IMG/VR virus record: IMGVR_UViG_3300025096_000001
Coordinates: 1-64,000 of that record
Length of the DNA stretch: 64,000 bases
Reading direction: 5' to 3' (one strand)
Source of the DNA: a virus
This document shows positions 1 to 36,200 of this stretch, piece after piece (within the stretch, counting starts at the first letter, position 1; each line of letters starts with the position of its first letter). The notes below the pieces were generated by a model. That model saw only the letters and a program-made list of their open reading frames with translations. It ran no database searches and was not told where the DNA came from. A program made the position numbers and the translations under genes.

Positions 1-156
1 ACCAAATCTTAATAGCGCTTTTCCCATTCTGGGCCATCTGTTAGCAGCCTTGTTCAAAATAATGTTTTGGGATAACTCTCCCCACGTACTTGGTTGATCA
101 ACACCTTCTTCGAGAAAGGCGTCCCAGTTATCCATTATGGTTTTCATATCGGGCAT
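1..156 (-). CDS. hypothetical protein, N-terminal 52 codons only (gene runs off the window start)
   Basis: The frame is open from 156 down to base 1. The ATG at 156 has AGGAGA 5 nt upstream. It begins MPDMKTIMDNWDAFLEEG. It is absent from the ORF track because it is truncated. Confidence 0.35.
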   Translation of the reverse strand, partial: MPDMKTIMDNWDAFLEEGVDQPSTWGELSQNIILNKAANRWPRMGKALLRFG

Positions 157-166
157 AATCGCTCTC

Positions 167-6361: not shown

Positions 6362-6761
6362 AAGTTATGGCCATGCCCCCAACAACGCCGGCGGCGACCC
6401 ACAAGATTGGATTCCTTCTACTTTGTTTTCGCAAAGCGTTGGCTAAAGCGTCACTCTCTCTTTCTAGTGATTGAACTCTCATATCATATTCGTTTATCAA
6501 TGCATCATGTCGAATTTGCAAATTTTGTATTTCTAATGTGTGCTCAGCAATTTGTGTATCTAAAGCATGTTGCATTTTATTCTCGCATTGGCCGACCACA
6601 AAACTTCTCTCTGCTAAGATTGTAGCAGTTGCAGCCGGGTCAAACAACACACCTTCGAATGGGGCACATTCATTTTGTCCCAAAAACGTGAATTGACCTG
6701 GGGGAGTGGCTATAGCTATATTACTCCACAAGCTGAAAACCATAAGCGTCAATAATCTCAC
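6330..6761 (-). CDS. secreted/membrane coiled-coil protein (N-terminal signal-like segment, C-terminal TM)
   Basis: It starts MRLLTLMVFSLWSNIAIATPP, has a central heptad-like region, and ends with the C-terminal segment ILWVAAGVVGGMAITYGSY. It overlaps the upstream gene by 41 nt. Confidence 0.45.
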   Translation of the reverse strand: MRLLTLMVFSLWSNIAIATPPGQFTFLGQNECAPFEGVLFDPAATATILAERSFVVGQCENKMQHALDTQIAEHTLEIQNLQIRHDALINEYDMRVQSLERESDALANALRKQSRRNPILWVAAGVVGGMAITYGSYRVFNNE

Positions 6762-7107
6762 TGCTCAGTGCCTCCTTATCTTGCGAAAACTGTCTTACAT
6801 ATTCGGTGGTGTTGTTTTGCCTTTCTTCTTCTAAGTCGGCTTGTGATTCCAAGTAACTCTGTTGAATGCTCTCTATAGTGTCTCGATAAGATTGAAGGGA
6901 TTCTTCGCGCTGTCGCAGTTCTTCGGCATGGATATCCCGAAGAGATGAGATCTGTAGCTCCATCTCTTGTTGGGAGGTTTCGTATGCTTTAACTATCGCA
7001 TTATAATCTATCCTAGTTTTAAGAGTAACAAGCGATAAGGATATAACTACTAATATTTCCTTCCAATGTTTTAGAGCAAATGCAAACACTTTTGCTTTGT
7101 CGATCAT
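6721..7107 (-). CDS. type-II membrane coiled-coil protein (i-spanin-like architecture, unproven)
   Basis: It has an N-terminal TM segment ILVVISLSLVTL followed by a long charged coiled-coil-like region. Its start overlaps the stop of the 63-aa gene by 1 nt. Confidence 0.4.
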   Translation of the reverse strand: MIDKAKVFAFALKHWKEILVVISLSLVTLKTRIDYNAIVKAYETSQQEMELQISSLRDIHAEELRQREESLQSYRDTIESIQQSYLESQADLEEERQNNTTEYVRQFSQDKEALSSEIIDAYGFQLVE

Positions 7108-7298
7108 CAGACACCCTTAACTTTTGCTAAGCCATCGACGACTCCTTGGGTTCCGATATAAATTGCGGAGAGCATTACCCAATCGCTCGATTCAAGACCA
7201 TAAAACGCCATCAGCCCTGTGGCTGTGAGCCAAACAAGAAACTTGCGAGATATCATCTTTTCGACTAGTCTATCTAATTTTCCTTTTGTTTCTTCCAT
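7107..7298 (-). CDS. small two-TM membrane protein (holin-like)
   Basis: 63 aa with two hydrophobic segments (FLVWLTATGLMAFYGL and WVMLSAIYIGTQGVV) and charged termini. Confidence 0.4.
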   Translation of the reverse strand: MEETKGKLDRLVEKMISRKFLVWLTATGLMAFYGLESSDWVMLSAIYIGTQGVVDGLAKVKGV

Positions 7299-7302
7299 TG
7301 TT

Positions 7303-7746
7303 TTATTCCTTTTTCTTTTTTTTGCCTGCTTTGGACATTTGTTTATCAGCTACGCCATAAGCCTGATCTTCAGGTACACCCTTGTCTATAAGGTATTCGG
7401 CGCGCTCTTCTTTTGCTTTGTAAAAGGACTTTTTATATTTCTCTTCTTCTTCAATTGTACGTAGTTCTTGTACTATTGCATCGACTATCTCGTTCATGCG
7501 CGATGGGTCGTTCAATGGATGTTCTTTTTTTGGCTTAATTACTTTCGCAAAGCGCCCCAATGCGCCTTGGGCATATCCCAAAGCCGCAGGGCTTTCTCCC
7601 GTAACTGCGCCGGCTAAATAATCTATACTAACATCTAGATTATCAATTTTGCTAGCCAAATTATTAATTGCCATCATCAGCGAAGAATCGAGATTCCCCA
7701 ACTCTTCTGTTATAATTTCTTTTATTTTGGACTTCGTAAGCTTCAT
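7303..7746 (-). CDS. leader class A protein (MKLTKSKIKEIITEEL...), Lys-rich C-terminus
   Basis: The ORF track gives 7303..7824. The ATG at 7746 has AAGGGAA upstream, removes the overlap with 7763..8212 and restores the family leader. Confidence 0.65.
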   Translation of the reverse strand: MKLTKSKIKEIITEELGNLDSSLMMAINNLASKIDNLDVSIDYLAGAVTGESPAALGYAQGALGRFAKVIKPKKEHPLNDPSRMNEIVDAIVQELRTIEEEEKYKKSFYKAKEERAEYLIDKGVPEDQAYGVADKQMSKAGKKKKKE

Positions 7747-7762
7747 ACTGCTGTTCCCTTGT

Positions 7763-8212
7763 TCATGTCCTATAGGTTTTTGCAAAGATTTCTCTACCAA
7801 CCACCCCATAGTCGCCCGGGCCATATTGTACTAAATAGTCTCCCGGCTCTCCTTGGAGTAAATCATTTGACCACGATACTTTAACTTGGAATGGGTCGCT
7901 CATTTCTTTGGCAAATACCGGTATGTTTTTCTTCGCCGCTGTTCCATCACCAAGGTCGTCGTATGTTTGCGCGAACTTCTCGGCTGGGATCGGCCACTGC
8001 TCGCCTTCCGTGCCTGTCATAACAGCATCGCCGGCTTTTGCTCCCACTGAACCTTCCTTGGTTTCGATGGTTTCGTCCGTCTCGGCGTATCTAAATTCTA
8101 ATGGAATAGGTTTCTTGGCGGTTTGAAAGCCATCTTGGGACAAGTCAGGGTTGTCTTCTAACCCAACTGTCTCATTCAAATACCTGTTCCAACTTTCAAA
8201 TAGTTTTTTCAC
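7763..8212 (-). CDS. leader class B protein with C-terminal PGDYG-type motif
   Basis: GTG start at 8212 (plus strand cac). It begins MKKLFESWNRYLNE. The C-terminus GEPGDYLVQYGPGDYGVVGREIF resembles the PGDYG domain family. That domain assignment is from memory and was not searched. Confidence 0.55.
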   Translation of the reverse strand: MKKLFESWNRYLNETVGLEDNPDLSQDGFQTAKKPIPLEFRYAETDETIETKEGSVGAKAGDAVMTGTEGEQWPIPAEKFAQTYDDLGDGTAAKKNIPVFAKEMSDPFQVKVSWSNDLLQGEPGDYLVQYGPGDYGVVGREIFAKTYRT

Positions 8213-8214
8213 GC

Positions 8215-8523
8215 CTAATACCCTGCATCGTATGGTGATTCGTCTTCATACCAATCGTGTGAGCCAAAATCTCTGCGGCCTATTTCATCCGATAGATCTC
8301 GATGCATCTCTTCGGTGTCGTGATACACGGTAGTTTCTCCATTTTGATGTGTTACCAAAATGGCAGGCTTTCCATCACTATCGATCTCAACGGATGCCTC
8401 GACATTAAACTTGTCAGCCAAGTCTTGCACTTCATCACGCATAAGATCTTCTTTAATAATATCTGTTTTCTCGTCCATAAAATACCGAGGGTCAATTCTT
8501 TTTTTGTTTTTTCTTATAGCCAT
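8215..8523 (-). CDS. hypothetical acidic protein
   Basis: 102 aa. AAGGAA lies 7 nt upstream of the ATG at 8523. Confidence 0.5.
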   Translation of the reverse strand: MAIRKNKKRIDPRYFMDEKTDIIKEDLMRDEVQDLADKFNVEASVEIDSDGKPAILVTHQNGETTVYHDTEEMHRDLSDEIGRRDFGSHDWYEDESPYDAGY

Positions 8524-8538
8524 TATATTATTCCTTTT

Positions 8539-8564
8539 ATGTTGCTAATCCATTCATACTTAGT
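8539..8564. repeat. 26-bp direct repeat, copy 2 (25/26 identical to 9062..9087)
   Basis: The plus strand reads atgttgCtaatccattcatacttagt. It lies in the gap between genes 8560..9063 and 8215..8523 and contains the stop codon of the former. Confidence 0.9.
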
Positions 8565-9063
8565 TTTCCCATCCGTAATCACGACGAGCGTTTGGGTCAC
8601 TATATGGTGGGGGGTTATACATACTTTCATCCCAGTTTCCAGTAGCAATAGCATACCAATTGCCGCGCTTGCCAAGTTTGCGAAAGTGAGCGAGTAGCGG
8701 ATTTTGTTCAAGAGCATCTGCTAAATTATTAAAAAGTTGAGTATATTGTTCTTTGAGTTCTTCCGGGACTGAGGATAGGAACTTTCCGGCTCGCAAATCT
8801 GTGGCGAGGGATTTTGCTGCGGCCGGTGCTTTGTCGCGATGAATTGGACGGCCGCGGCCACCGGTGGGGCCGCGAGAATAAGCTGCAAACCACTTGGTAA
8901 AGTGTTCGCCAATCCGACTATTAACATCAACATTCGACTCGTTTGGTTCTGGTTCTGGATCAGAAGGACCCATACTTCTTTCCAGTCCGCGAGTTAGACG
9001 AGGATCTGGTTCGTATTCTGCTTCGTTTAAGTGCTTTCGCCAATTTTCAAATAGTTTCTTCAT
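8560..9063 (-). CDS. leader class B protein (MKKLFENWRKHLNE...)
   Basis: The ORF track gives 8560..9147. The ATG at 9063 forms an ATGA overlap with the FtsZ-like stop and restores the class B leader. Confidence 0.65.
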   Translation of the reverse strand: MKKLFENWRKHLNEAEYEPDPRLTRGLERSMGPSDPEPEPNESNVDVNSRIGEHFTKWFAAYSRGPTGGRGRPIHRDKAPAAAKSLATDLRAGKFLSSVPEELKEQYTQLFNNLADALEQNPLLAHFRKLGKRGNWYAIATGNWDESMYNPPPYSDPNARRDYGWEN

Positions 9064-10202
9064 GTTGTTAATCCATTCATACTTAGTATCGCAATCAATC
9101 CGGGCACATTCTTTCGGACATAAACGCCCGAGAACAGTGTCTCGCATCGACCGCCGACATAAGCGATTGCCGACTCAATATTCTTGCTGACTTTAGGGTC
9201 AGCCACCATCTCCTCTGACACAACCAGTACTAACGAGCCTGCAGCAGCCTTACCTTTAGGTGGAGGGCACGCAGAACGATTCATACAGTTATGGAGAATC
9301 ACCGATCCAAGCTTTCCAGTATTGGGATCTTTTATCATGGTTGAGCCTAAGAAGGCACGACCATTATTGCCCAGACATGTTTCCAGATCTTTACTATCGA
9401 AAGATTGGATCGGTGAATCCTCGGTGGAGAGTTTTAACACCTGGGCAAATGATTTAGCAAATTGTGTGTTGGCGACAGGGTACATGCCAAGCATGCCAAT
9501 TCTGCCGCGAAGTAAGCGAGTGGCTCGTTCGTTGTCAAGAACAATGTGCGGATGCGCGGCAACATCATTTGCCAGCGTCAACGCATTACGAGCGATTGTG
9601 GGGTTAAGGTTTTCTTGCGCAGTTGGCCATGAAACTACATAAACGACGCGGCCGCTCGCTTGAACAGAGCGTAAGTAACGCTCAAAGACAGGCTGAAGAG
9701 CAGTGACAGAGCTACCGGTACCGCCGCCGCCACCAGCAAGGACGAATAACCAATCAACTTTACCGAGTTTGATGCGGAGAGCATCTTCAATAATTGCACC
9801 ATTTTGACTTAATACCTCTTTTCCATATTCTACATTTTTGCCGATTCCATCAGAATCGGGAATTAAAACGACGTGATCCTCTTCAACGTTCTTCGGAATA
9901 TCTTTTCCAGTTGTGTTTACGAGTAGCGTCTTATTGAAACCTAGTTCAATAAACGCATTCGCCATTTTGTTGCCTCCACCGCCGACGCCAACAAAGCCCA
10001 CATTAATTGAAGAGGGCGCTGTGTTTTCTGGCAAGAGGTCTTCATCAGAGTATTCCATCTGGAGTCCAAAGTCTTCTACCATACCGAAATCTTCAGCATC
10101 TACCTGTTCGTGATAGTGGTCTTTCTCCTGATTAAAGGAGGGTGGTGGTTCTGCGGGAGGCAGAAAATCAAATTCGTTTTTGTTGTCGTTCTCGTCTGAC
10201 AT
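9060..10202 (-). CDS. FtsZ/tubulin-superfamily GTPase with ~65-aa acidic N-terminal extension
   Basis: The following blocks resemble FtsZ:
- GFVGVGGGGNKMANAF resembles the FtsZ T1 loop.
- VLAGGGGGTGSSV is the tubulin signature GGGTGS, the T4 loop.
- HIVLDNERATRLL resembles FtsZ vIPNdrLl.
- SFDSKDLETCLGNNGRAFLGS resembles the T7 region NxDfaDvxtvmxxxGxAxxG.
AAGGAA lies 6 nt upstream of the ATG. Confidence 0.75.
   Translation of the reverse strand: MSDENDNKNEFDFLPPAEPPPSFNQEKDHYHEQVDAEDFGMVEDFGLQMEYSDEDLLPENTAPSSINVGFVGVGGGGNKMANAFIELGFNKTLLVNTTGKDIPKNVEEDHVVLIPDSDGIGKNVEYGKEVLSQNGAIIEDALRIKLGKVDWLFVLAGGGGGTGSSVTALQPVFERYLRSVQASGRVVYVVSWPTAQENLNPTIARNALTLANDVAAHPHIVLDNERATRLLRGRIGMLGMYPVANTQFAKSFAQVLKLSTEDSPIQSFDSKDLETCLGNNGRAFLGSTMIKDPNTGKLGSVILHNCMNRSACPPPKGKAAAGSLVLVVSEEMVADPKVSKNIESAIAYVGGRCETLFSGVYVRKNVPGLIAILSMNGLTT
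9062..9087. repeat. 26-bp direct repeat, copy 1
   Basis: The plus strand reads atgttgTtaatccattcatacttagt. It covers the last codons of the FtsZ-like gene (SMNGLTT stop) and the start codon of 8560..9063. Confidence 0.9.
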
Positions 10203-10212
10203 TGTTTATTCC

Positions 10213-11277
10213 TTATTCTGCGGCCTTTTTGGCTCTAGTAAATGTAGGTGCAAAGTTTAACTTACCACCAGCAAAATCATCTTTAACTGCACTGAAATCT
10301 GGGCCGCCCTTATCTGGATCAAACTGTGGCATGATTTCTCTTGGTGGGCCTTCGCTAGAATACTTTTGTGCGAGGGCGCCGCAGTTGTCAGCAATCTCAG
10401 CACAAGCTCCGACTACAAGCCTTTCCTTTCTCTTGCCAAGTTTGCCGCCAGGTGTGGTCAATTCTTGAACTTGTTCTGCTTCCTCTTCGGGAGCCGAACC
10501 TTGGAAGCCCTTGACAGGTTTGCCACCTGTTCCCTGTCCATATCCTGTGTTTCCTATAACCGCTATAACTTTAGGGTTCATAAAGCTGCCACCCGATTTA
10601 GGGTCCATAACTTTTCCAACATTGGATAAAAGTGCTTGCTCAACTTGTTCTCTATCCATCGCACTTGATCCGATAATGCTTCGGCCTTTCTTAGCTGATG
10701 CTGACGGGATCGCTTTGCCGGCGCCAAGATATGCTGCAATTGCCAATTGGCTAACTAAAAGCGCTTTGCCTGGATCCATTACAATTACATTGGCAGGAAT
10801 TTTACAATTGGTGTTAAAAACAGTTGCGCCGGACCACCTATGGTGACCATCAATAATATAATATGTACCACCGTTTCCGGCTACAAGAATAGGTGGAGCG
10901 GCCGAAGTACCAGCGATAACAGCTTGCAAGCCTTTAGCATTAGAACCATTAAAACCTACAGACTTAAACAAATCGATGACGCCCTGAGTTGGCACTAGTT
11001 GAGGTGCGGGAATAGTTTGCCCCATAGCAACTTTGATTACCTCGTCAGAAGGCTTTGCATCTTCGTCACCAAGTTTAAGAAGCGCCCTTACTGCTGGGCT
11101 TGCGCCTTCAGGCGTGTTTAATTTTGCAACTAGTTGCGCTAAGGGTTGATTAAAATTACCAGCATCTGCTGCATCAATAAGTGGTGCAATGTTCTGTGCT
11201 AACCATTGTGCTGCTTGTTCTTCTGTTTCTATATCTTCGTTTACGAACTTTTTCCAGTTTTCCATTAGTAATTTCAT
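10213..11277 (-). CDS. ParB/Srx-fold (ParB N-terminal-like) domain protein carrying a class B leader
   Basis: GGTYYIIDGHHRWSG (nt 10834..10851 encode DGHHRW) matches the ParB-like nuclease/Srx motif. The upstream LVPTQGVIDL block is consistent with it. The ATG at 11277 (AGGAGA 9 nt upstream) is preferred over the TTG at 11286. It begins MKLLMENWKKFVNE. Confidence 0.6.
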   Translation of the reverse strand: MKLLMENWKKFVNEDIETEEQAAQWLAQNIAPLIDAADAGNFNQPLAQLVAKLNTPEGASPAVRALLKLGDEDAKPSDEVIKVAMGQTIPAPQLVPTQGVIDLFKSVGFNGSNAKGLQAVIAGTSAAPPILVAGNGGTYYIIDGHHRWSGATVFNTNCKIPANVIVMDPGKALLVSQLAIAAYLGAGKAIPSASAKKGRSIIGSSAMDREQVEQALLSNVGKVMDPKSGGSFMNPKVIAVIGNTGYGQGTGGKPVKGFQGSAPEEEAEQVQELTTPGGKLGKRKERLVVGACAEIADNCGALAQKYSSEGPPREIMPQFDPDKGGPDFSAVKDDFAGGKLNFAPTFTRAKKAAE

Positions 11278-11290
11278 ATCGTGCAATCTC

Positions 11291-14200
11291 CTACTGGTTT
11301 ACTCTTGCATATCCGTCTTTCTTTTCGATTACGACTTGCATATCAACACAGTCTTTGAGCGAATCAAGGTGTGAGATAAGTAAGACATTCTTGAAATACA
11401 CTTTAATTAGTTCCAAGATACGAATAAATCCCTCCATATTTTCTTCATCTAATGCTGTCCCGGGTTCGTCAAGGATAAACACATCCGATTTTGGAAGAGA
11501 AGAGACACTTAAGAGCGATAACCGGATGGCCATGGCCGCCATCGTCTTCTCCGCCCCTGACGCCATTTCAATCGGGCGCTCATCATAAAGCGGGTGTTTA
11601 ATAAAAATATCAAACTTATTTCCGAAACTTTCAAAGAAAATCTCAAAATCCACAATATTTGCTAGCACTTTAGCAATTTCTTGATTGATCACTGGTATCT
11701 TCTTTTTGATTACATCGTATGCTATTCCATTAGGATGCATAGCTTGCATAAACAGATCGTAGGCTGCATATGAATTTTGTAAGTCGACATATTCTTTTTT
11801 CTGTTCTTGCAAGGTTTCTATCTTCTGCTCACAAGAACCTATCATTTTTACAACCTCAAGAGTGTCGGACTCGCAAGATTCAAGTTCACTTGATAGGGTG
11901 CCGATCTGTTTATTGAAATCGGTTCGCATTGTCATAAGTTCTTCAAGGTTTTCGATTGCATCTTTGTTGTCATCATATTTTTTAATTAACTCTGTGATCT
12001 CTCTTAATTCAAGCTCTGTTCTGGTTAAAGAATTCTTATTTCTTTCTCTAGCGAGCTTAATATTAGACAACTCCTTTTCAGCAACCGACAACTCGGAAGC
12101 AATTGATTCATACCTTATTAGATTGCTTTTGTTCTGTTCTGGCTTAAGTTCATCAAGCTTGTTCTCTGTCGTCTTTAATGTGGTAACATCGTTTTTTCTA
12201 TCTTTAGACGCGGCATGAGCATCTTTAACAAAGGTGTTCTCGCTGCAATATTTACAATCTGGATCGTACTTGTGATCCTTCAGCATTTTAATCTTTTTGT
12301 CCGCTTCGCCTATGCTGCGATTCAAAAGAGATATGTTTTGCTTTACTTTGTCGATCGTAGACTTATCTTTTAATAATTTCTCTAAATCTACAGATTCTAA
12401 AATCTTATTCAAATTAATTATTTTGATCTGTTTTAGCTTTGCTATAGTGTTTTGTTCAGAGATCGTGCTAGCCAAGGAGACCAGCATACGAGATTTACTT
12501 TTTTGTTGTTCTCTTACATTTCTAATGTCGATAAGTTCTGCTGGAATCGTTGAGATCTGTTCGTCAACCAAGGTTAGGGACGTCTTTGTTGCTTCGATCT
12601 TATTTTTGAGCAACTCACAGACCGTCTTATTGTTTTCAGACTTTTGTACTTGCTGTAGCAGGGCTAACTTCGATTCTTCTATTTCTTCGCCATAATCTCG
12701 ATTTTGGTGCTTCTTAATTAGAACCTTGGCTTCGATAGAGTCATCTTTGGCCATTTTAAATTTCTTTTCAAAAATCTCCAAATCTAAAAACTTTGCAATA
12801 ATTTCTTTTCGGCGGGTGGAACCTTCGTCAATGAAGGCCAATGAGCCGTGCTGTGAAGCCAACGAAGATACCATAAAGTCGTCCATAGTGCCAAAGTGCT
12901 TACGAATATTTGCATCTGTCTGATTGCGTGTGGTCCCATTAAGTGAAACCGTCTCATCCGTAAGCGGATCGTATACTTCGAAGTTGAGATCTGTTTTAGC
13001 TTCTAAGGTTTCTTCCCCCTTCAAACGCTTGACATATTTCTTTGATTCTCTTTCAATGGTATATGTTTTATTATTACACTCAATTGTTAGTTTACCTCTA
13101 CCGAGGTCTCTATTCTGATTGATGACATTGAGGTTCTTTCGTTCATTTTTTGAAGTTGTATTAAATAAAGTATAAAGAGCAGCGTCAATAATGGAACTTT
13201 TACCGCTAAAGTTTTTTCCGAAAATCCCAATAATACCATTAAGAGAACTAAAATTGACAGCATTGTCTTCACCATAATTAAAAAGATTATCAAACTCAAA
13301 ATTTGTTAGCTTCCAATTAACATTGCGCGAGACTTCTTCTTTCTCTTCGATGATTTTGTTGTAAGTACGATTTAACTCATAAACTTTTTCCATAGTGTCA
13401 GAGGGCACCTGATGGTCTTTAAGGTACTCTGAAATAAGCTCTTCTTGGATCTTTGGGTCTCGCAAGTTTTCAGTCTTGAGGCCGTCTGTGATTTCTTCTA
13501 CATTTCCGCGTTCACCGCTAGCGCGATTTAAAAACGATATAGATTCGGGCTTGAATCTAGACTTAGCAATATCCATTGCTCGCTTCATTACATTGAGCGG
13601 CAAGTTGTTAGTGCTGACTAAACGAAGGCGCGCGTTTTCTGGTACTTCAATTTTTCTTGGCATGCGGCCGCGGAGTGTCAACGGGATAGTGAAAAAGGGT
13701 TTGGGGTTTTGTAACACAATCGGTTCAATATCCCACTCATCCTTTGATTTAATATCCCATATAAGAATGCCCTTGTCGTTAGTTTCACCGTGATTCTGTT
13801 GGACCGTTGAGCCGGCATACCAAATGCGGCCGGCGTCATCTAAGAATTGGCGCCTGTGAATATCGCCAAGCATTGCAAAATCAAAATCATCAAAGATTGT
13901 GATCTCGTCTTCGCCAAAACTCATTGTCCAGTTAGTGTCTGTTTTACAGCGACTAATAGAGCCGTGGTAAAGAGCAATGTTGATCTTATCCGGATTACTT
14001 GGCTTTAGCCACTGTTCTCGATCAAAGACCGACAGAACATTCAAACAGAAGTCATCATTTAGATGCGTTTCTCCTGAGTCCTTGAGCAAGTGCAGCCTAG
14101 GAAGGTTTAACGCATCTACGATGGGTGTAAGCGCATCTTGGCGGCTACTATTCTTTAGATTGCCGTCGTGGTTGCCCAAGATAATATATGTTGGTGCAAT

Positions 14201-14407
14201 CTCTGCTAAACTGCGAAAGAAGTCAGAACACATCTCGACAAACTCAGGTGAGATTTGTGTCTTCGTGTGTGCAATGTCTCCGCAGTGAACAATGTAATCA
14301 ACTTCTTGTTCTCGTAAGGTTTTGTATAACTGCTCAAAAACAATTCTGTATTCATAATGATACTTCAAATTTTTGATATGAGTGTCGCTAATATGTGCAA
14401 ATTTCAA
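11291..14407 (-). CDS. single-chain Mre11/SbcD-like nuclease fused to Rad50/SbcC-like ATPase
   Basis: - The N-terminus has calcineurin-like phosphoesterase motifs HISDTH, HCGDIAH, GNHDGN and LGDIHRRQ.
- Walker A is GIFGKNFSGKSS at about residue 400.
- A long coiled coil carries a central CKYC hook-like CxxC at about residue 717 (nt 12245..12265).
- The signature motif is SGAEKT, Walker B is VFILDEPGTALD, and LLISHL follows.
- The start is TTG at 14407, with GGAGG 5 nt upstream. The first motif begins at residue 5. Confidence 0.85.
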   Translation of the reverse strand: MKFAHISDTHIKNLKYHYEYRIVFEQLYKTLREQEVDYIVHCGDIAHTKTQISPEFVEMCSDFFRSLAEIAPTYIILGNHDGNLKNSSRQDALTPIVDALNLPRLHLLKDSGETHLNDDFCLNVLSVFDREQWLKPSNPDKINIALYHGSISRCKTDTNWTMSFGEDEITIFDDFDFAMLGDIHRRQFLDDAGRIWYAGSTVQQNHGETNDKGILIWDIKSKDEWDIEPIVLQNPKPFFTIPLTLRGRMPRKIEVPENARLRLVSTNNLPLNVMKRAMDIAKSRFKPESISFLNRASGERGNVEEITDGLKTENLRDPKIQEELISEYLKDHQVPSDTMEKVYELNRTYNKIIEEKEEVSRNVNWKLTNFEFDNLFNYGEDNAVNFSSLNGIIGIFGKNFSGKSSIIDAALYTLFNTTSKNERKNLNVINQNRDLGRGKLTIECNNKTYTIERESKKYVKRLKGEETLEAKTDLNFEVYDPLTDETVSLNGTTRNQTDANIRKHFGTMDDFMVSSLASQHGSLAFIDEGSTRRKEIIAKFLDLEIFEKKFKMAKDDSIEAKVLIKKHQNRDYGEEIEESKLALLQQVQKSENNKTVCELLKNKIEATKTSLTLVDEQISTIPAELIDIRNVREQQKSKSRMLVSLASTISEQNTIAKLKQIKIINLNKILESVDLEKLLKDKSTIDKVKQNISLLNRSIGEADKKIKMLKDHKYDPDCKYCSENTFVKDAHAASKDRKNDVTTLKTTENKLDELKPEQNKSNLIRYESIASELSVAEKELSNIKLARERNKNSLTRTELELREITELIKKYDDNKDAIENLEELMTMRTDFNKQIGTLSSELESCESDTLEVVKMIGSCEQKIETLQEQKKEYVDLQNSYAAYDLFMQAMHPNGIAYDVIKKKIPVINQEIAKVLANIVDFEIFFESFGNKFDIFIKHPLYDERPIEMASGAEKTMAAMAIRLSLLSVSSLPKSDVFILDEPGTALDEENMEGFIRILELIKVYFKNVLLISHLDSLKDCVDMQVVIEKKDGYARVNQ

Positions 14408-14443
14408 TGGTCCCTCCAGACATAAGTGTGCTTCTACTATACA

Positions 14444-14472
14444 AGTATATCTCGTTTAATGAGGGATGTCAA
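14444..14472 (-). promoter_or_regulatory. sigma70-type promoter upstream of the Mre11-Rad50 gene
   Basis: The minus strand reads cTTGACAt, then 17 nt, then TATACT, about 37 nt upstream of the TTG start. Confidence 0.6.
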
Positions 14473-14480
14473 GTGTTTTT

Positions 14481-14729
14481 TTATCTGAGTGCGTCGATCA
14501 TTTCTTGAATCTTGCGGAGTGGCTCTGCCAAGTCGGCTCTGTCATTCCCTTCGAGATACAGAATAACATCCTTAAGGCGAGCACCTGCCTGAGCATGCTC
14601 AGAAGCGTCTCCTTCTGGTCCGGTGACGATTGCTTCATCGCCATGGCCGCCGATGTCTGTATCAACAATACCCTCAGAAGCAACTTCTTCCATAATAATT
14701 TTTCTAAGTTGTTCTTTTGTGATCTTCAT
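14481..14729 (-). CDS. leader class A small protein (MKITKEQLRKIIMEEV...)
   Basis: The ORF track gives 14481..14774. The ATG at 14729 has GGGAGA 5 nt upstream and restores the family leader. Confidence 0.7.
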   Translation of the reverse strand: MKITKEQLRKIIMEEVASEGIVDTDIGGHGDEAIVTGPEGDASEHAQAGARLKDVILYLEGNDRADLAEPLRKIQEMIDALR

Positions 14730-14770
14730 TTTTATCTCCCAACACTCAAACTGAGTGCTTGTTTTTGTGG

Positions 14771-15373
14771 TCACACGTGTTCTTCATCTTCTTCTTTTTC
14801 TTCTAAAAAGAATTCGTTATCGCCATCAAACCTATCGAGCTTTTGACGCTGCGCGTGGCGCTCATCTTCATAGTCCTTATAATCTAAGTCGAATTCTTTC
14901 ATAATCTTGAACAATTCTTGATCAAGCTTGACAGCCATTCTACGTATTCTACGTCCCTCAGTTTTTCGATCAAACGACTGAAGATCCAAATCTGCTGTAT
15001 ATCCGGTAAATTTATTAAACAACATACCCCACTGTTCGATCTTTCTTTTGAATGCATCGTATCTTTCGACTGGGATCTTTAATTCGGCGCCTTCTTCAAG
15101 ACCATAATCGCCTTCAATGTTTTCTTGTGAGGCATCCATTAAACTAGCGACCATATTAGCCAGCTGTTGTAGCTCTTCTGGGTCCTGGGGGTCCAAGTCG
15201 ACAACCAGTTTCATAAGTTCTGCTCTAACAGACTCTGGACGCGATGCTATACCGTGAGAGGACATTGTCTTTGCGGCGGGCATCATTGATAAATGCGCGC
15301 CGTGGCCCTCTTCTATAATATTTCGAATCTCTTCTTTAAGCAGTTGTGTAAGTTGTTGTTTTGTGATTTTCAT
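14771..15373 (-). CDS. leader class A protein (MKITKQQLTQLLKEEI...), acidic C-terminus
   Basis: 200 aa. Its first 24 nt are identical to those of gene 15385..15630. Confidence 0.7.
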   Translation of the reverse strand: MKITKQQLTQLLKEEIRNIIEEGHGAHLSMMPAAKTMSSHGIASRPESVRAELMKLVVDLDPQDPEELQQLANMVASLMDASQENIEGDYGLEEGAELKIPVERYDAFKRKIEQWGMLFNKFTGYTADLDLQSFDRKTEGRRIRRMAVKLDQELFKIMKEFDLDYKDYEDERHAQRQKLDRFDGDNEFFLEEKEEDEEHV

Positions 15374-15384
15374 TTTATTTTTCC

Positions 15385-15630
15385 TTAATTATATTCTATT
15401 TCAACTTCTTTATCTTTCAGAAACGCGGTGGCTTCGCCCATCGCTTTGTCCCAATCAATATAATCATCGGCATCGACATAATTATCTTCAATAAATTCCC
15501 AACCCAGAGACTTTGCATAATCGATAAGCTCTTGTGCATCTCCGCTATAAGTAAATACCTCACGTTCGTTCAAAACCTTTCCAATCTCTTCTTTAATGAT
15601 CTGTTTAAGTTGTTGTTTTGTGATTTTCAT
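15385..15630 (-). CDS. leader class A small protein (MKITKQQLKQIIKEEI...)
   Basis: 81 aa with the family leader. The SD is weak (TAAGAA). Confidence 0.7.
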   Translation of the reverse strand: MKITKQQLKQIIKEEIGKVLNEREVFTYSGDAQELIDYAKSLGWEFIEDNYVDADDYIDWDKAMGEATAFLKDKEVEIEYN

Positions 15631-32209: not shown

Positions 32210-33279
32210 GAACACACCTCGGGTACCGTGGTTGGACCATATATATCATAATATCTTTGGTCACTAGGGCCAGTGCGCTGAGAGTCACAATCAAAATCTA
32301 AACTAACATAGTAAGATTGTTTATTAAAAATTTCGGCGGCGCGACAGGCTAGTAATGGATTGATTTGAGTGTCTTTAATAAAATCAAAGTAATATTCTAC
32401 GCTGCCACTGGTAATTGCTCTTGCCGCTGTATGCGACACAGAACCGTAATATGGATCGGTTGAGTCTACTTGAGTTTTTTCAGACATTAGACCGCCCAAT
32501 ATTCGTTCGGGATCTTCGGGGAAATATTTTCTTATAAGACGATCAGTAGTTGTACAGGTTTCACAGGTAGCCGCCACTGCGTCGTGTTCTATTTCAAATA
32601 CCTCAACGTCAAAATTTTCATTGAGGATATCAGTATTTAATTCTTCAGCATACATTAATAAGTCGTCTGCGCTCAGCTTAATAACGTTGCCATCCGAGAA
32701 TGTCTTAGTTATAGATGTAGCATTTCGAAGGCCTGTCTCAGTGTATCCAGCAGACATGCTGGATCGCTCAACGGAAAGTCGATAATTTAGATTGATATTT
32801 ACTTGAGGTATATCAACTTGGTTTTTCTTGTCGTCCAACGAAGATGACATGATCTCCCCATTAAGTGACACAAGTTTCCATGCGGGAGCCTTTTGTTGAT
32901 CGGCATCCAAATGTGCATCGCCGATTATAGAAGTGAACCTAAAAGCGTCTAAACGAGGTTTAATCATAGTTGGTGTGACATCAACTGAAAAATATCTTTC
33001 TGTCGTTGGATCGGCGCCATCTACAAAACTATTTTTTAAATGATTTTCTACATCTTCAAACAACACCAAGCTTTCAATATATTGTGTTTCATTTTTAATT
33101 CTATTGCTGATATCATTTTGGGTTTCGGTCATTCGGGCATAAGAGCCGTCATATATAATATTACTATCAAAGAATGCATAATATTCTGGCTTAAACCTGC
33201 CGGTAGATAATAGATAATGACCATAAGAAGTAAGCTTCAAATCGTATACTTGTTCTTTTTTGTCTATAAATTTAGCCAT
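32206..33279 (-). CDS. virion structural protein, distant N-terminal paralog of 22186..23223 and 23277..24353
   Basis: Its N-terminus LKLTSYGHYLLSTGRFKPEYYAFFDSNIIY fits the LTxxGxxxLSxG-x6-F-x3-D-x2-I-x-Y pattern of the other two genes. Confidence 0.4.
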   Translation of the reverse strand: MAKFIDKKEQVYDLKLTSYGHYLLSTGRFKPEYYAFFDSNIIYDGSYARMTETQNDISNRIKNETQYIESLVLFEDVENHLKNSFVDGADPTTERYFSVDVTPTMIKPRLDAFRFTSIIGDAHLDADQQKAPAWKLVSLNGEIMSSSLDDKKNQVDIPQVNINLNYRLSVERSSMSAGYTETGLRNATSITKTFSDGNVIKLSADDLLMYAEELNTDILNENFDVEVFEIEHDAVAATCETCTTTDRLIRKYFPEDPERILGGLMSEKTQVDSTDPYYGSVSHTAARAITSGSVEYYFDFIKDTQINPLLACRAAEIFNKQSYYVSLDFDCDSQRTGPSDQRYYDIYGPTTVPEVCS

Positions 33280-36200
33280 TAATAAATATCCTTCTTAATA
33301 CCATCTGGCGTTCCGGGACTAGAGGCCTTTGAGGCAGCTGGTGCCTCATCTGTTGTGCCGCGGGCAACGGCACTTGCCTCCCGAGCAACGGCCGCCGCGC
33401 CGCTGGCTCCATAAAGGTCATCTCCCGGAGTTCGCATTTTAAATGTTTTGGTAGGTGCCGAGACACTTTCGACGAAGGCTGCACGTGCTGTGGCGCCCTC
33501 AGATCCCGGTGGCATTGGTGGGGATGTCGATGTGCCCGGGGTGAATTCCTCACCGATTGCTCCGCCGTACCGACTAACAACTTCAGATTCTTCATGTGAC
33601 ATTTTAATATCAGCATCAATTTTGACTGACTCAATAATCGAAAAGAAATCATAGGGCCAGTTATATTGTGCATAAGAATCAAAACCATCAAGAGGAGCAT
33701 GACCAGTACCCGCACCATAAGCTAAGCTACCAATAGTGGATACTTTTTTATCATAATAATTAGACTGTACTCTCTGTTTTACTTTAAAAACCTGCCATCT
33801 TAAATTTGGATTCTCTAACAAATCAGACTCCTGAAAAAGTTCGTTATTCGCTAATATGTGGGATACCGAGGCGCCTTTTAACTCAAACTTGTTGTAGTTT
33901 CTTGGCATTACATTCTGCCACATGTACGATAGATCGTCTTTGTCAAATGTGTGACTAAACTCAAATATATACATAACAATAGGTTGGAGTTCCCTATTCG
34001 TGATAAAATCAAACTGTGGGGGGATTATATATTCTTGCATTAACCTAACCTGGGTCCTGATAGACTGTCCCACAAAATCTAACGATAGTCCCACCGGGGT
34101 GTTCATTAGATCATCTAGGGACGCGTCTATTTGTGCTAATGGGATTTCGAACAAATATTTATTTTCTACACTTGTTGGTATCGTACCATTAGCCGGCTCT
34201 TCTGCTGTTAACATATAGGGTACCGCAATAATAGCTTCTTTCACTGTTAGTGAATCTTTCAATTCTCCGATTCTTTTGCTTTTTTGTTTATCTCCAAAAC
34301 CAATCCTATCTCTCAGAGATTTGACCTTTGGTGCCAATTCGCCATCAGTGTCTGGGATGTAGTTATTATATGCACTTCCAGAGTTTCTTACGAGATAATG
34401 ATTTTTGAGCCAGTTTTCGGACATGTCATGCATCTCTAAAAACACACCAGTCTCCGCGTTGTGTGGAAGGGTTCCGAACTGATGCCACATTCCATTGGCG
34501 ATCGATCCGGAGGCATATATACCCTGCGTTCCACCGCCGGCGAGGGTGCGCGTTATTGTCTTGTTATTTAAGCTAGCGGTGACTGGTCTATCCCCATATT
34601 TGTCATTAAAGTTAAGCATTGGAGTTTCAAACTTTGTCTGAATGACCCACTTTTTACCAACTGTTTCAGTCTCAGATAATATGGTTCTGCCACTATCATG
34701 ATCAATAATTTCTTTTGGTACCGATTCGATACCAAAAATGTTCAAACTACTAGTTGCTTGCATAGCTGAATCATTGATTAGGGTACCGCCATAAATTGCT
34801 GTTGGAAAGGTATAATTACTTGTAATGCAATATGGATCATGGATTAATGAATGATAGCCGTGCACAATATCTTTAGCATATCCGTATCCGTGCGGATTAT
34901 TCGGATTACCACTATAAGTTCGAGCACCAGCGATTGGTGAGGTTTTCCCTGTGGAGGGTGATAATTTCCAATCGTAATTATTTACTCTCGGGCCTGGATC
35001 GACACGCCAACAGACAGTCTGGGTTGCTGCCATAATTTTTTCTAAATCATAAGTCACGCCAGTTTCGGGCCTAAAAATAAGATCAACCCAAGCCTCACCA
35101 TTATAATAAGGAGGTGTATAAGCCCAGTTAAAGCCCGTTCTACTGTCCATTACTTGAAAAGCGCCTGACGTATAGAAAGATGAAGTATATGGAGATAGGC
35201 GCTGACTGGGACCAATTGGGTTCGTGGCATCCAGGCCATGTATTCCCTCGATCGGTGGCCCAAAGGCGGTTGGGCGACTGTACATTGTGAATGTTTCTTT
35301 AAACGAGGGAGAATTCACAGGATCCTGTGGCAACTCAAAATATGAGGCGCCTGCCTGATATTGTTGAGATATGGACCTCGCCGCCTTCGTTGCGAGTCTT
35401 GGGTTGGGTGTGAAAGAGCGGCCGCCTAGGCGATTATATGCATAAATACTAAAAGATCCTGACTCCTTATTATAAATTCTCGATCCTGTAACGGAGCGTC
35501 TGAGTTTAATTCTAGCCATGTATACTTCATTATTGCCAAACTTAAGCTCTTTTATTGGTTCAGAGCGAAGTGAAGTAAACTCGGAATCCTTGAGATAAAA
35601 GTCAGCAACACCACCAAAGAAGTTTCTGGCCATCAGAGTATATGTTTTCTCCTCTGCTGAATTTAAGCCTGCCAAGACCGAGGAAGTTACAGGCATCCCC
35701 CCATAAGCTGAGCGCAGGGAACCGGTGTATTCTAAACTACAACTTGGGTGTGGTTCGACGTCCACAAAATCTCGCTTACTAATCAACTCTGGACGGATAA
35801 TACCCTCAAAGGGGATTCTTTTGTCGAAGAAAGAACCTGAGCCACCATACATTCCGCCCACGCCCGCGGGTGCGACAGGTTCGCCGGTGGTGGCTGGAAG
35901 ATCAGCTTCCCGAACACCGATAGCATAATCATTTATACCTTGGCTCGACGGAGGTTTCCAACCTAAACCGTTAACACTAATTTTTACTCTATCGTCGAAA
36001 ACTGGGTAATCAACTGCAATACCTGACTTGATTGAATTATATAGAATTCCGGGCGCAAACATGGCTTCACACAGCGGTCGTAGTGAGCCAGCGGCTCCAG
36101 ATAAAATAGTATCTCCATCTAATGTTAGATCATCAATAGAGTCCGGAATCATCGTTGATCTAATACGTGTTGACATATTTGGCATGAAGCTCTGTCTAAA

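What the first reader, a model, noticed from the sequence alone, without database searches (positions are those of the whole stretch)
9060..11277. Phage-borne FtsZ/tubulin-like GTPase with an acidic N-terminal extension, translationally linked to a ParB-fold protein
The 380-aa protein carries FtsZ-type blocks: a T1 loop (GVGGGGNK), a T4 loop (GGGGGTGS), an IPNDRLL-like block and a T7-like block. Unlike cellular FtsZ, it has a roughly 65-residue highly acidic N-terminal extension and no obvious C-terminal peptide.
The gene directly upstream encodes a ParB/Srx-fold protein (DGHHRW), and its stop overlaps the FtsZ-like SD. The gene directly downstream starts in an ATGA overlap with the FtsZ-like stop.
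Known phage and plasmid tubulins (PhuZ, TubZ) position or segregate DNA. TubZ works with the DNA-binding adaptor TubR. A pairing of an FtsZ-like protein with a ParB-fold protein would be a different combination. It could position phage DNA or interfere with host division.
Basis: partly seen in the sequence, partly recalled or inferred. Interest (0 to 1): 0.7.

Follow-up and report, generated by a model that had tools for sequence, protein, structure and literature searches.

The report
Marine phage FtsZ-like filament GTPase
A widespread group of uncultured marine T4-like phages carries its own, previously undescribed relative of the cell-division protein FtsZ. The "ParB" gene next to it is an interchangeable neighbour, probably loaded into the phage head, and not its partner.

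Summary
Window 9060..10202 (-) encodes a 380-aa tubulin/FtsZ-superfamily GTPase with T1, T4 and T7 motifs, an acidic disordered N-terminal tail and no C-terminal tail. Pfam, PDB sequence search, AlphaFold2 and Foldseek all agree.

It is not a true FtsZ, TubZ or PhuZ. It is about 20% identical to FtsZ and CetZ alike. It belongs to a family found almost only on phage contigs, is abundant in ocean metagenomes, matches no deposited phage genome, and no description turned up in the papers searched.

The proposed pairing with ParB is not supported. The upstream protein has only a ParB/Srx-type core of about 95 aa and no detected DNA-binding domain. Among 71 related loci, 8 carry it and 20 have no gene at all in that position.

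The ParB-like gene and the downstream gene both start with a 14-aa leader, MK(K/L)LFENWRKxLNE. The same leader sits on at least 31 unrelated protein bodies in the two variable slots flanking the FtsZ-like gene and beside the prohead protease. It ends in (L/I/V)-x-E, the T4 prohead-protease cleavage motif, so it is probably a capsid-targeting sequence.

Best reading: a polymerising phage cytoskeletal GTPase whose conserved acidic-aromatic N-terminal peptide serves as an adaptor or contact site. Its cellular role is inferred, not shown.

The parts
9060..10202 (-). FtsZ/CetZ-like GTPase gene, 380 aa. It represents a tubulin-superfamily family found almost only on phage contigs.
10008..10202 (-). 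Codons 1-65: disordered acidic N-terminal tail. It holds the conserved peptides EFDF(L/I)PP and DFG(M/F)(V/I)E(D/H)(F/Y)G, followed by LPxN.
   Evidence: Alignment A1, pLDDT profile, charge, N-tail motifs in the wider family.
9966..9989 (-). T1 loop GVGGGGNK (residues 72-79).
9711..9734 (-). T4 signature GGGGGTGS (residues 157-164).
9387..9401 (-). T7 loop FDSKD (residues 268-272). D269 and D272 are invariant in the core family.
10213..11277 (-). Variable slot A cargo: 354-aa protein made of the 14-aa leader, a ParB/Srx-type core (about residues 82-170, DGHHRWS) and a helical remainder of unknown function.
   Evidence: Present in 8 of 71 related loci.
8560..9063 (-). Variable slot B cargo 1: 167-aa protein with the leader MKKLFENWRKHLNE. 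Its ATG overlaps the FtsZ-like TGA.
8215..8523 (-). Variable slot B: 102-aa protein of unknown function, without the leader.
7763..8212 (-). Variable slot B cargo: PGDYG-domain protein with the leader (GTG start, MKKLFESWNRYLNE).
7303..7824 (-). Variable slot B: 173-aa protein of unknown function.
11291..14407 (-). Conserved left anchor of the locus: Mre11-Rad50 fusion protein (1038 aa).
7107..7298 (-). Conserved right anchor of slot B: 63-aa protein. It looks holin-like (two hydrophobic stretches) from reading the sequence only.
6721..7107 (-). Rz-like spanin candidate (N-terminal hydrophobic segment followed by helical repeats).
   Evidence: phrog_1152, E=0.0014.
14444..14472 (-). Sigma-70-like promoter match (TTGACA-17-TATACT, 11 of 12) upstream of Mre11-Rad50. 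It may drive the operon that includes the FtsZ-like gene.
   Evidence: This is a consensus match only, and the number of sites in the region is not above chance.
9059..9096 (.). 38-nt junction sequence (3' end of the FtsZ-like gene plus the leader ATG), repeated at 8536-8573 with 84% identity. The two copies bracket the 167-aa cassette.
   Evidence: (repeat D4).
1..158 (-). Start of a fourth leader-bearing gene (MKTIMDNWDAFLEE...), downstream of portal-p287-p179 and cut off by the window end.

Best explanation
**What it is.** The gene encodes a member of a distinct FtsZ/CetZ-like family of the tubulin superfamily, found almost only on phage contigs. It is a fixed-position gene in a cosmopolitan clade of uncultured marine T4-like myoviruses of about 150-200 kb.

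**How it most likely works (inferred from intact motifs and fold).**
- It binds GTP through loops T1-T6.
- It polymerises head to tail, so that the T7 loop (D269, D272) of one subunit completes the GTPase site of the next. This would give dynamic filaments during infection.
- It has no C-terminal tail. In its place is a disordered, strongly acidic N-terminal tail with a conserved aromatic-acidic peptide. I take this peptide to be the docking site, either for a partner protein or for the basic body of a neighbouring subunit.

**Most likely role (inference).** A phage cytoskeleton that organises the infected cell, positioning phage DNA or the head-assembly and packaging machinery, in the manner of PhuZ. 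It is unlikely to be a centromere-based segregation system.

**The neighbours.** The upstream ParB/Srx-like gene and the downstream 167-aa gene are not partners. They are exchangeable cargo genes in two hypervariable slots flanking the gene. Most such cargo genes carry a 14-aa N-terminal leader that probably targets proteins into the prohead and is cut off by the prohead protease.
For: **Identity.**
- Pfam PF00091 scores above its gathering cut-off.
- PDB sequence search: FtsZ 6e-12 with the single sequence. With the family profile, CetZ-like 3zid scores 1.1e-10 over the full length and FtsZ about 1e-9.
- AlphaFold2 model: pLDDT 89.4.
- Foldseek PDB: CetZ 5.5e-21, FtsZ about 1e-20, TubZ 3e-19, all at about 20% identity.
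- Foldseek BFVD: the best hits are two uncultured-phage 'FtsZ' proteins at 16-17% identity; PhuZ scores 2e-11.

**Polymerising GTPase.** G72, G74, G75, G77, the G158-S164 stretch, N224, D269 and D272 are invariant in 21 family members. G74, G77, G159, G161, G163 and D269 remain invariant, and D272 at 90% or more, down to 21% identity.

**Phage-associated and widespread.**
- 885 protein clusters at 90% identity, on contigs up to 201 kb, many from Tara Oceans.
- 269 confirmed IMG/VR loci.
- 735 representatives of 50%-identity clusters.
- Of the five relatives at 25-52% identity whose contigs were read, three lie among phage genes; the other two contigs were too short to judge.
- Only 2 MAG contigs among 185,579 species genomes.
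- No match in 50,697 deposited phage genomes.

**Fixed-position gene.** It lies between Mre11-Rad50 and p63...TerL-portal in the 80 fetched loci. Median identity to the window is 94%, against 83.5% for TerL, 74% for portal and 58% for Rad50.

**N-terminal tail.**
- Conserved D38-F39...G46...L57-P58-x-N60.
- Acidic tail against a basic body.
- In the wider family, 30 of 78 representatives have phi-P-[DE]-phi in the tail, against 5.2 expected from shuffles (largest shuffle 11).

**Neighbours as cargo.**. T4 precedent for capsid-targeting sequences and the L/I-x-E cleavage motif: PMC9026906 and PMC3012670.
Against: - No biochemical or imaging data exist. Polymerisation and the cellular role are inferred from motifs and from precedent.
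- The 94% identity figure is biased, because the 80 loci were chosen as the best FtsZ-like matches. In more distant relatives the protein is no better conserved than TerL or portal: L005 has 64% against 74% and 81%.
- No conserved partner gene was found.
- A PhuZ-type positioning role is best established in nucleus-forming jumbo phages. Nothing in this window resembles that lineage, and whether small marine host cells need such positioning is unclear.
- The gene's constant association with leader-bearing cargo genes in four lineages is not explained by this model.
Confidence: 0.5

Rival explanations
1. Host-division hijack. The phage protein acts on the host divisome. It could cap or poison host FtsZ filaments, or its N-terminal peptide could compete for the membrane anchors and regulators that normally bind the FtsZ C-terminal peptide. 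Either way it would block or redirect division during infection.
For: - By sequence and fold it is closer to FtsZ and CetZ than to TubZ or PhuZ.
- It lacks the FtsZ C-terminal tail.
- The N-tail motifs of the wider family (for example IPDLPLEEFEIP, FDIPDV) recall the FtsZ C-terminal peptide core D-I-P-x-F-L. That resemblance is from memory and was not tested.
- Many phages are known to inhibit FtsZ (general knowledge).
Against: - Identity to any solved FtsZ is only about 20%, and TIGR00065 scores 49.9 bits against a cut-off of 295. Co-polymerisation would need matching longitudinal interfaces.
- The family looks like an old phage lineage, not a recently captured host gene.
- Known phage division inhibitors are small proteins, not full GTPases.
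Confidence: 0.2
2. TubZRC-like DNA segregation. The FtsZ-like filament would move phage or prophage DNA through the adjacent ParB-fold protein acting as a centromere-binding adaptor.
For: - The genes are adjacent with only a 10-nt spacer.
- A ParB/Srx core is present.
- TubZ-TubR gives a precedent in phage c-st (general knowledge; cited in PMC7824862).
Against: - The ParB-like gene is present in 8 of 71 related loci, and the slot is empty in 20.
- It is absent in that position from an 85%-identical relative.
- No HTH domain was detected, and the motif is DGHHRW as in the free serine kinase, not the ParB GERRxRAA box as recalled.
- There are no iterated repeats in 6500-15500.
- The ParB-like protein carries the modular leader of its resident phage. 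In locus L004 that leader is a different one, and the gene lies beside the prohead protease.
- No lysogeny genes were seen in the window.
Confidence: 0.04
3. Head-assembly or ejected protein. The FtsZ-like protein would work at the prohead, as a platform for core or cargo loading or for capsid delivery. It might even be loaded into the capsid through its acidic N-terminal extension and injected with the DNA.
For: - In relatives at 60-64% identity the gene lies between portal-p287-p179 and the S77 prohead protease and gp23.
- A relative at 27% identity (P0205) lies 3.7 kb from a T4-like portal.
- In four lineages it is immediately flanked by leader-bearing cargo genes, and in many loci the leader ATG overlaps its stop codon.
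- The long acidic N-terminal extension contains L-P-E-N, which fits the L/I-x-E motif (PMC9026906).
Against: - It does not carry the 14-aa leader.
- The Glu of LPEN is Asp in several members, and no candidate cleavage site is invariant.
- Ribosomal protein S21 also sits in that module, so position alone is weak evidence.
- In the window's clade the gene follows Mre11-Rad50, and other relatives lie among replication genes.
Confidence: 0.12

Closest known systems
FtsZ (bacterial and archaeal cell-division GTPase)
   Same: - Two-domain fold.
- T1 GVGGGGxK, T4 GGGTG(S/T), T6 N-E/D and T7 xxDxxD motifs.
- Among the best sequence and structure matches.
   Different: - About 20% identity.
- TIGR00065 scores 49.9 bits against a cut-off of 295.2.
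- No C-terminal linker or conserved C-terminal peptide. It has an acidic N-terminal tail with its own conserved peptide instead.
- Encoded by phages, not in a cell-division gene cluster.
CetZ / CetZ-like proteins of archaea (PDB 3zid, Methanosaeta thermophila)
   Same: Best profile-to-PDB match and best Foldseek match, aligned over nearly the whole globular body.
   Different: - 21% identity.
- Found on phage contigs; the host is unknown, and the only hints (two MAG bins and the nearest cultured phages) point to bacteria, not archaea.
- Different termini.
PhuZ (tubulin of nucleus-forming jumbo phages)
   Same: - A phage-encoded tubulin-superfamily GTPase.
- An acidic terminal tail combined with a basic body.
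- A plausible role in organising the infected cell.
   Different: - Much weaker structural match (BFVD E=2e-11 against 1e-19 to 1e-22 for uncultured-phage FtsZ-like proteins) and no PDB sequence hit.
- The tail is N-terminal, not C-terminal.
- The genome is of the T4-like head lineage (gp20, S77 protease and gp23 in relatives).
- No chimallin or multisubunit RNA polymerase was seen in the 64-kb window.
TubZ-TubR-tubC type III partition systems (Bacillus plasmids, Clostridium phage c-st)
   Same: A tubulin-superfamily GTPase on a mobile element. The Foldseek match is good (3e-19).
   Different: - No TubR-like gene and no centromere iterons.
- No C-terminal tail.
- The sequence match is weaker than to FtsZ (5e-6).
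- The adjacent ParB/Srx-like gene is not conserved.
T4 internal proteins (IPI-III, Alt) with a capsid-targeting sequence. This applies to the neighbouring genes, not to the FtsZ-like gene.
   Same: - A short conserved N-terminal leader on otherwise unrelated proteins.
- The genes lie in hypervariable regions.
- The leader ends in (L/I/V)-x-E, the gp21-type cleavage motif.
- An S77 protease is encoded in related genomes (PMC9026906, PMC3012670).
   Different: - The leader is 14 aa (MKKLFENWRKxLNE) against 10 aa in T4.
- The cargo includes ParB/Srx-like, PGDYG and P-loop kinase-like bodies.
- Packaging and cleavage have not been shown.

Membership tests
Tubulin/FtsZ superfamily | GTPase domain matches Pfam PF00091 above its gathering score. 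| tested here: met
   39.4 bits against a cut-off of 33, E=9.9e-10, residues 69-227.
Tubulin/FtsZ superfamily | Glycine-rich T1 and T4 nucleotide-binding signatures. | tested here: met
   GVGGGGNK and GGGGGTGS. The glycines are invariant across the family.
Tubulin/FtsZ superfamily | T7 loop with acidic residues that activate GTP hydrolysis in the neighbouring subunit. | tested here: met
   FDSKD aligns with NLDFAD of S. aureus FtsZ. D269 is invariant and D272 is conserved at 90% or more down to 21% identity.
Tubulin/FtsZ superfamily | Two-domain fold: a Rossmann-like GTPase domain, a core helix and a C-terminal domain. | tested here: met
   AlphaFold2 pLDDT 89.4. Foldseek probability 1.00 to CetZ, FtsZ and TubZ, with TM-score up to 0.81 relative to the target.
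Tubulin/FtsZ superfamily | GTP-dependent polymerisation. | not testable with these tools
   Needs purified protein.
FtsZ proper | Scores above the NCBIfam TIGR00065 equivalog cut-off. | tested here: not met
   49.9 bits against 295.2. Nine relatives also fall far below the cut-off.
FtsZ proper | C-terminal linker plus a conserved C-terminal peptide that binds membrane anchors. | tested here: not met
   The chain ends at residue 380, 2 residues after the last strand of the model.
FtsZ proper | Chromosomal gene of a cell, usually in the division and cell-wall cluster. | tested here: not met
   Phage context in the window and in the loci read. Only 2 MAG contigs among 185,579 species genomes.
CetZ | Specific sequence relationship to archaeal CetZ, and archaeal distribution. 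| tested here: inconclusive
   3zid is the top hit, but at 21% identity and with an E-value close to that of FtsZ. No reference phylogeny could be built here.
TubZ (type III partition) | Adjacent TubR-type DNA-binding adaptor and iterated centromere repeats. | tested here: not met
   No iterons in 6500-15500. The neighbours are variable cargo genes.
TubZ (type III partition) | Flexible C-terminal tail that binds the adaptor. | tested here: not met
   No C-terminal tail.
PhuZ | Closest sequence or structure relationship is to PhuZ. | tested here: not met
   No PhuZ among the PDB sequence hits. The BFVD PhuZ hit is 2e-11 at 14% identity.
PhuZ | Co-occurrence with chimallin and the nucleus-forming phage core genome. 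| tested here: inconclusive
   Nothing of that kind appears among the annotated ORFs of the 64-kb window. The rest of the roughly 195-kb genome was not examined.
ParB (partition CTPase); applies to the upstream gene | ParB/Srx-type N-terminal fold. | tested here: met
   Foldseek probability 0.99 over about 85-100 residues to ParB, Noc, KorB, sulfiredoxin, SerK and SbnI, though E-values are only 2e-3 or weaker.
ParB (partition CTPase); applies to the upstream gene | Helix-turn-helix centromere-binding domain, with parS sites or a ParA partner. | tested here: not met
   The high-probability matches cover only the ParB/Srx-type core; no DNA-binding domain is matched. There is no Pfam HTH hit, no repeats and no ParA-like neighbour.
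ParB (partition CTPase); applies to the upstream gene | CTP-binding box of the GERRxRAA type (motif recalled from memory). | tested here: not met
   The family invariant is DGHHRWSGA, as in SerK-type members of the fold.
T4-type capsid-targeted internal proteins; applies to the neighbouring genes | Short conserved N-terminal leader shared by otherwise unrelated proteins. | tested here: met
   72 ORFs in 47 of 91 sequences searched (90 loci plus the window). The bodies fall into 31 unrelated clusters, and conservation collapses after residue 14.
T4-type capsid-targeted internal proteins; applies to the neighbouring genes | Leader ends in the prohead-protease motif L/I-x-E, and a gp21-type protease is encoded. 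| tested here: met
   Position 12 is L, V or I in 66 of 72 and position 14 is E in 68 of 72. An S77 protease is present in at least 15 related loci. The motif is taken from PMC9026906.
T4-type capsid-targeted internal proteins; applies to the neighbouring genes | Actual packaging into the head and cleavage of the leader. | not testable with these tools
   Needs virion proteomics.

The most novel reading that the evidence does not exclude
The FtsZ-like filament and the leader-bearing cargo genes may form one functional unit. In this reading, the phage cytoskeletal GTPase works at the head-assembly site as a platform that gathers prohead cores and capsid-targeted cargo, or it is itself delivered into the next host.

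This would explain why the gene is embedded in leader-cargo islands, or lies next to the prohead protease, in four separate phage lineages. It would be a tubulin-superfamily protein coupled to virion assembly or ejection in a phage that does not form a nucleus, a role not known for any FtsZ or tubulin relative.
Probability: 0.12. Interest if true: 0.85.

Novelty: new variant of a known kind. Interest (0 to 1): 0.55.

Why it matters
Phage tubulins are so far understood from two cases: TubZ, which segregates plasmids and prophages, and PhuZ, the spindle of nucleus-forming jumbo phages.

This is a third, FtsZ/CetZ-like lineage, found almost only on phage contigs. It has a different design, with the conserved docking peptide on an acidic N-terminal tail and no C-terminal tail. 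It sits at a fixed position in an abundant, globally distributed clade of marine T4-like phages with no cultured representative.

If it does form filaments, intracellular organisation by a phage cytoskeleton would be far more common in the ocean than the nucleus-forming phages suggest. The family would also be a useful outgroup for studying how FtsZ, CetZ and tubulin diverged.

The by-product may matter as much. The 14-aa leader marks a large, rapidly exchanging set of probable injected proteins (ParB/Srx-like, PGDYG, kinase-like and many unknown). Such proteins are the kind of cargo phages use against host defences.

Tried and rejected
**1. ParB as partner: rejected.** Co-occurrence is too low.

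**2. Centromere-like iterons: none found.** The repeat search over 6500-15500 found only the DNA that encodes the leader (three copies) and a 38-nt cassette junction.

**3. T4-type late promoter: uninformative.** There are 13 TATAAATA sites in the window, none below position 16,000. Expression timing is therefore not resolved. The sigma-70-like and terminator scans found no more sites than chance, apart from one 11-of-12 promoter match before Mre11-Rad50.

**4. A hidden FtsZ-like gene in the nearest cultured relatives: rejected.**
- The nearest cultured relatives by portal are Flavobacterium phage immuto and Microcystis phage Mel-JY01, at 39% portal identity.
- tblastn of the FtsZ-like protein against all deposited phage genomes found nothing.
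- The 360-aa gene before the immuto prohead protease is unrelated (hhalign probability 0.2).

**5. "Most conserved gene of the region": only partly accepted.** The 94% median is inflated by how the loci were picked, and the effect disappears in more distant relatives.

**6. Cleavable propeptide in the FtsZ-like N-tail: not supported.** No candidate L/I-x-E site is invariant.

**7. Literature.** Full-text searches and four papers read for FtsZ or tubulin mentions did not turn up this family.

**8. Host assignment: only weak hints.**
- No tRNA genes in the window.
- One phage contig binned in a Flavobacteriaceae MAG and one in a Hyphomonadaceae MAG.

Full report
**1. The observation**

All genes in this part of the window are on the minus strand. 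ORF 9060..10202 encodes 380 aa.
- It matches Pfam PF00091 (tubulin/FtsZ GTPase domain) above the gathering score: 39.4 bits against 33, E=9.9e-10.
- By sequence alone it finds S. aureus FtsZ in the PDB at 6e-12. In that alignment GVGGGGNK pairs with GVGGGGNN, GGGGGTGS with GMGGGTGTG, LDNERATRLL with IPNDRLL, and FDSKD with NLDFAD.
- An AlphaFold2 model built on 37 homologues has pLDDT 89.4 and pTM 0.82. Most of residues 1-50 is modelled at low confidence, and residues 66-380 form the two-domain fold.
- Foldseek against the PDB gives CetZ 3zid at 5.5e-21, M. jannaschii and S. aureus FtsZ at about 1e-20 and TubZ at 3e-19, all near 20% identity.
- The N-terminal 65 residues hold 19 acidic and 2 basic residues (pI 4.05). 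The body has pI 8.6.
- There is no C-terminal tail.

**2. What genome this is**

The window carries a T4-type portal, a large terminase, an Mre11-Rad50 fusion, a DnaG-type primase, a RuvC-like resolvase, Hsp20 and a baseplate wedge protein. It is therefore a T4-like myovirus.
- The nearest cultured phages by portal protein are Microcystis phage Mel-JY01 and Flavobacterium phage immuto, at 39% identity. Neither has the FtsZ-like gene.
- A 100%-identical copy of the upstream protein lies on a 195,459-bp metagenomic contig.

**3. The family**
- The protein has 885 relatives among 90%-identity clusters, many from Tara Oceans, on contigs up to 201 kb.
- There are 269 confirmed loci in IMG/VR and 735 representatives of 50%-identity clusters.
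- It fails the FtsZ equivalog model by a wide margin: 49.9 bits against 295.2.
- With a family profile, the CetZ-like 3zid (1.1e-10, full length) and FtsZ (about 1e-9) are equally close. TubZ is weaker (5e-6), and PhuZ and tubulin do not appear.
- In the viral structure library the best matches are two uncultured-phage 'FtsZ' proteins at 16-17% identity, and PhuZ follows at 2e-11.
- Contigs were read for five relatives at 25-52% identity. Three lie among phage genes: ThyX and PolA; peptide deformylase, sigma factor and Cpn60; and a T4-like portal with inteins. The other two contigs were too short to judge.
- Among 185,579 species genomes, only two MAG contigs carry it.
- The literature searches did not turn up a description.

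I conclude that it belongs to a distinct FtsZ/CetZ-like branch of the superfamily that is found almost only on phage contigs.

**4. Features that bear on mechanism**
- The nucleotide-binding glycines and the T7 aspartates are invariant in the core family and nearly so down to 21% identity. This is what is expected of a subunit whose GTPase is completed by the next subunit in a filament.
- The tail carries a conserved peptide: DFG(M/F)(V/I)E(D/H)(F/Y)G followed by LPxN, with EFDF(L/I)PP further upstream in many members.
- In the wider family the N-terminal tail typically reads like IPDLPLEEFEIP, about 20-25 residues before the G-box. A phi-P-[DE]-phi motif occurs in 30 of 78 representatives, against 5.2 expected from shuffles.
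- Many of those wider relatives also have a short basic C-terminal extension that the window's subfamily lacks.
- An acidic peptide on a flexible tail attached to a basic body could be an adaptor-binding site or a contact between subunits. From memory, it recalls the FtsZ C-terminal peptide, the SSB C-terminal tip and the PhuZ tail. These are leads, not tests.

**5. The neighbours**

I ran tblastn with the window's proteins against the related loci, 83 of which belong to the window's clade (three from metagenome contigs, 80 from IMG/VR). The order is fixed: primase ... Mre11-Rad50, slot A, the FtsZ-like gene, slot B, then p63, p128, p143, p135, p184, TerL, portal, p287 and p179.
- Slot A ranges from about 0 to 2,033 nt. 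It is empty (under 60 nt) in 20 of 71 loci and holds a ParB-like gene in 8, only 2 of them near full length.
- Slot B ranges from 15 to 6,334 nt.
- The ParB-like protein has an invariant PTQ..ID...DGHHRWS...MPQFD pattern and matches the free serine kinase at liiDGHHRW.
- In a good model (pLDDT 85.9) it matches ParB, Noc, KorB, sulfiredoxin and SerK with high probability only over the ParB/Srx-type core of about 85-100 residues. No DNA-binding domain is matched.
- There are no centromere-like repeats.

**6. The leader**

The ParB-like gene, the 167-aa gene after the FtsZ-like gene and the PGDYG-domain gene all begin with MK(K/L)(L/I)(F/M)E(N/S)W(R/N)K(F/H/Y)(L/V/I)NE.
- The same 14 residues head 72 ORFs of 29-354 aa in 47 of the 91 sequences searched (90 loci plus the window). 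After residue 14, similarity disappears.
- The bodies fall into 31 unrelated clusters.
- 47 of these ORFs lie in slot B and 10 in slot A. Most of the rest lie just after portal-p287-p179, next to the S77 prohead protease that these genomes encode.
- The gene after the protease also carries a leader-like ENWxKFxxE.
- A fourth such gene starts at about window position 158 and is cut off by the window end.
- In more distant relatives a different leader, MK..qLKqIIxEE, plays the same part on genes around the protease. One of these is a ParB-like protein.
- The leader ends in (L/I/V)-x-E. This is the cleavage motif of the T4 prohead protease and the way the 10-residue capsid-targeting sequence of T4 internal proteins ends (PMC9026906, PMC3012670).

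I therefore read these genes as capsid-targeted, probably injected, cargo. That reading is inferred and needs proteomics.

**7. What the FtsZ-like protein does**

None of this is shown directly.
- **Most likely (about one half).** It forms GTP-dependent filaments that organise the infected cell. They would position phage DNA or the assembly and packaging machinery, with the N-terminal peptide as the docking site.
- **Host-division interference (about 0.2).** This fits its closeness to FtsZ. It is weakened by the 20% identity and by the age of the family within phages.
- **A head-assembly or injected role (about 0.12).** This is the only reading that explains why the gene lies in leader-cargo islands or beside the prohead protease in four lineages. 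The protein lacks the leader, however, and has no invariant cleavage site.
- **ParB-mediated segregation (about 0.04).** This is essentially excluded.

**8. Caveats**
- The 94% median identity (against 83.5% for TerL, 74% for portal and 58% for Rad50) is inflated, because the loci were chosen by similarity of the FtsZ-like protein. In more distant relatives the protein is not unusually conserved.
- Expression timing is unknown. The only clue is a sigma-70-like promoter match before Mre11-Rad50.
- The host is unknown. The weak hints point to Flavobacteriaceae.

Noticed in passing
window 11236-11277, 9022-9063, 8171-8212 and about 117-158 (all minus strand); loci L001-L086: A 14-aa N-terminal leader, MK(K/L)LFENWRKxLNE, heads many unrelated proteins (31 body clusters). 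It is concentrated in the two variable slots around the FtsZ-like gene and next to the prohead protease. It ends in (L/I/V)-x-E and is probably a capsid-targeting sequence marking injected cargo.
   Followed up: yes
window 9059-9096 and 8536-8573: A 38-nt direct repeat (84% identity) brackets the 167-aa cassette. One copy is the FtsZ-like 3' end plus the leader ATG. In many related loci, different cargo genes start at this same ATGA junction. This suggests cassette exchange by recombination at conserved junctions.
   Followed up: partly
window 33279-45185 and 49389-55832 (minus strand): Two giant ORFs of 3,968 and 2,147 aa lie near the baseplate wedge gene (47190-48986). Neighbouring ORFs of 1,004 and 1,103 aa have no Pfam or PHROG match; the giant ORFs themselves were not scanned.
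   Followed up: no
window 11291-14407 (minus strand): Mre11-type phosphoesterase and Rad50/SMC ATPase are fused in one 1,038-aa protein. From memory, T4 encodes them separately as gp47 and gp46. Identity to relatives is only 54-73%.
   Followed up: no
window 6721-7298 (minus strand): A possible lysis cassette lies at the right edge of slot B. It comprises a 63-aa protein with two hydrophobic stretches (holin-like, by reading the sequence) and a 128-aa Rz-like spanin candidate (phrog_1152, E=0.0014).
   Followed up: partly
window 7763-8212 (minus strand): A PGDYG-domain protein (PF14083, E=3e-19) carries the leader and starts with GTG.
   Followed up: partly
L004 11145-11351; L005 12876-13151; L064 20923-21138: Relatives encode a ribosomal protein S21 homologue inside the head-gene module, between the prohead protease and the major capsid protein.
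   Followed up: no
L095 11873-15152: A distant FtsZ-like-bearing phage has a T4-like portal gene interrupted by inteins. Other intein and HNH genes lie nearby.
   Followed up: no
L089 9214-10203: In a 52%-identical relative, the gene right after the FtsZ-like gene is a P-loop kinase or zeta-toxin-like protein. It starts MSFTENRLLQIIREE, a second type of leader.
   Followed up: partly
window 60191-63803 (minus strand): A UDP-glucose dehydrogenase-like gene and a radical SAM gene lie at the right end of the window. They may be auxiliary metabolic or modification genes.
   Followed up: no
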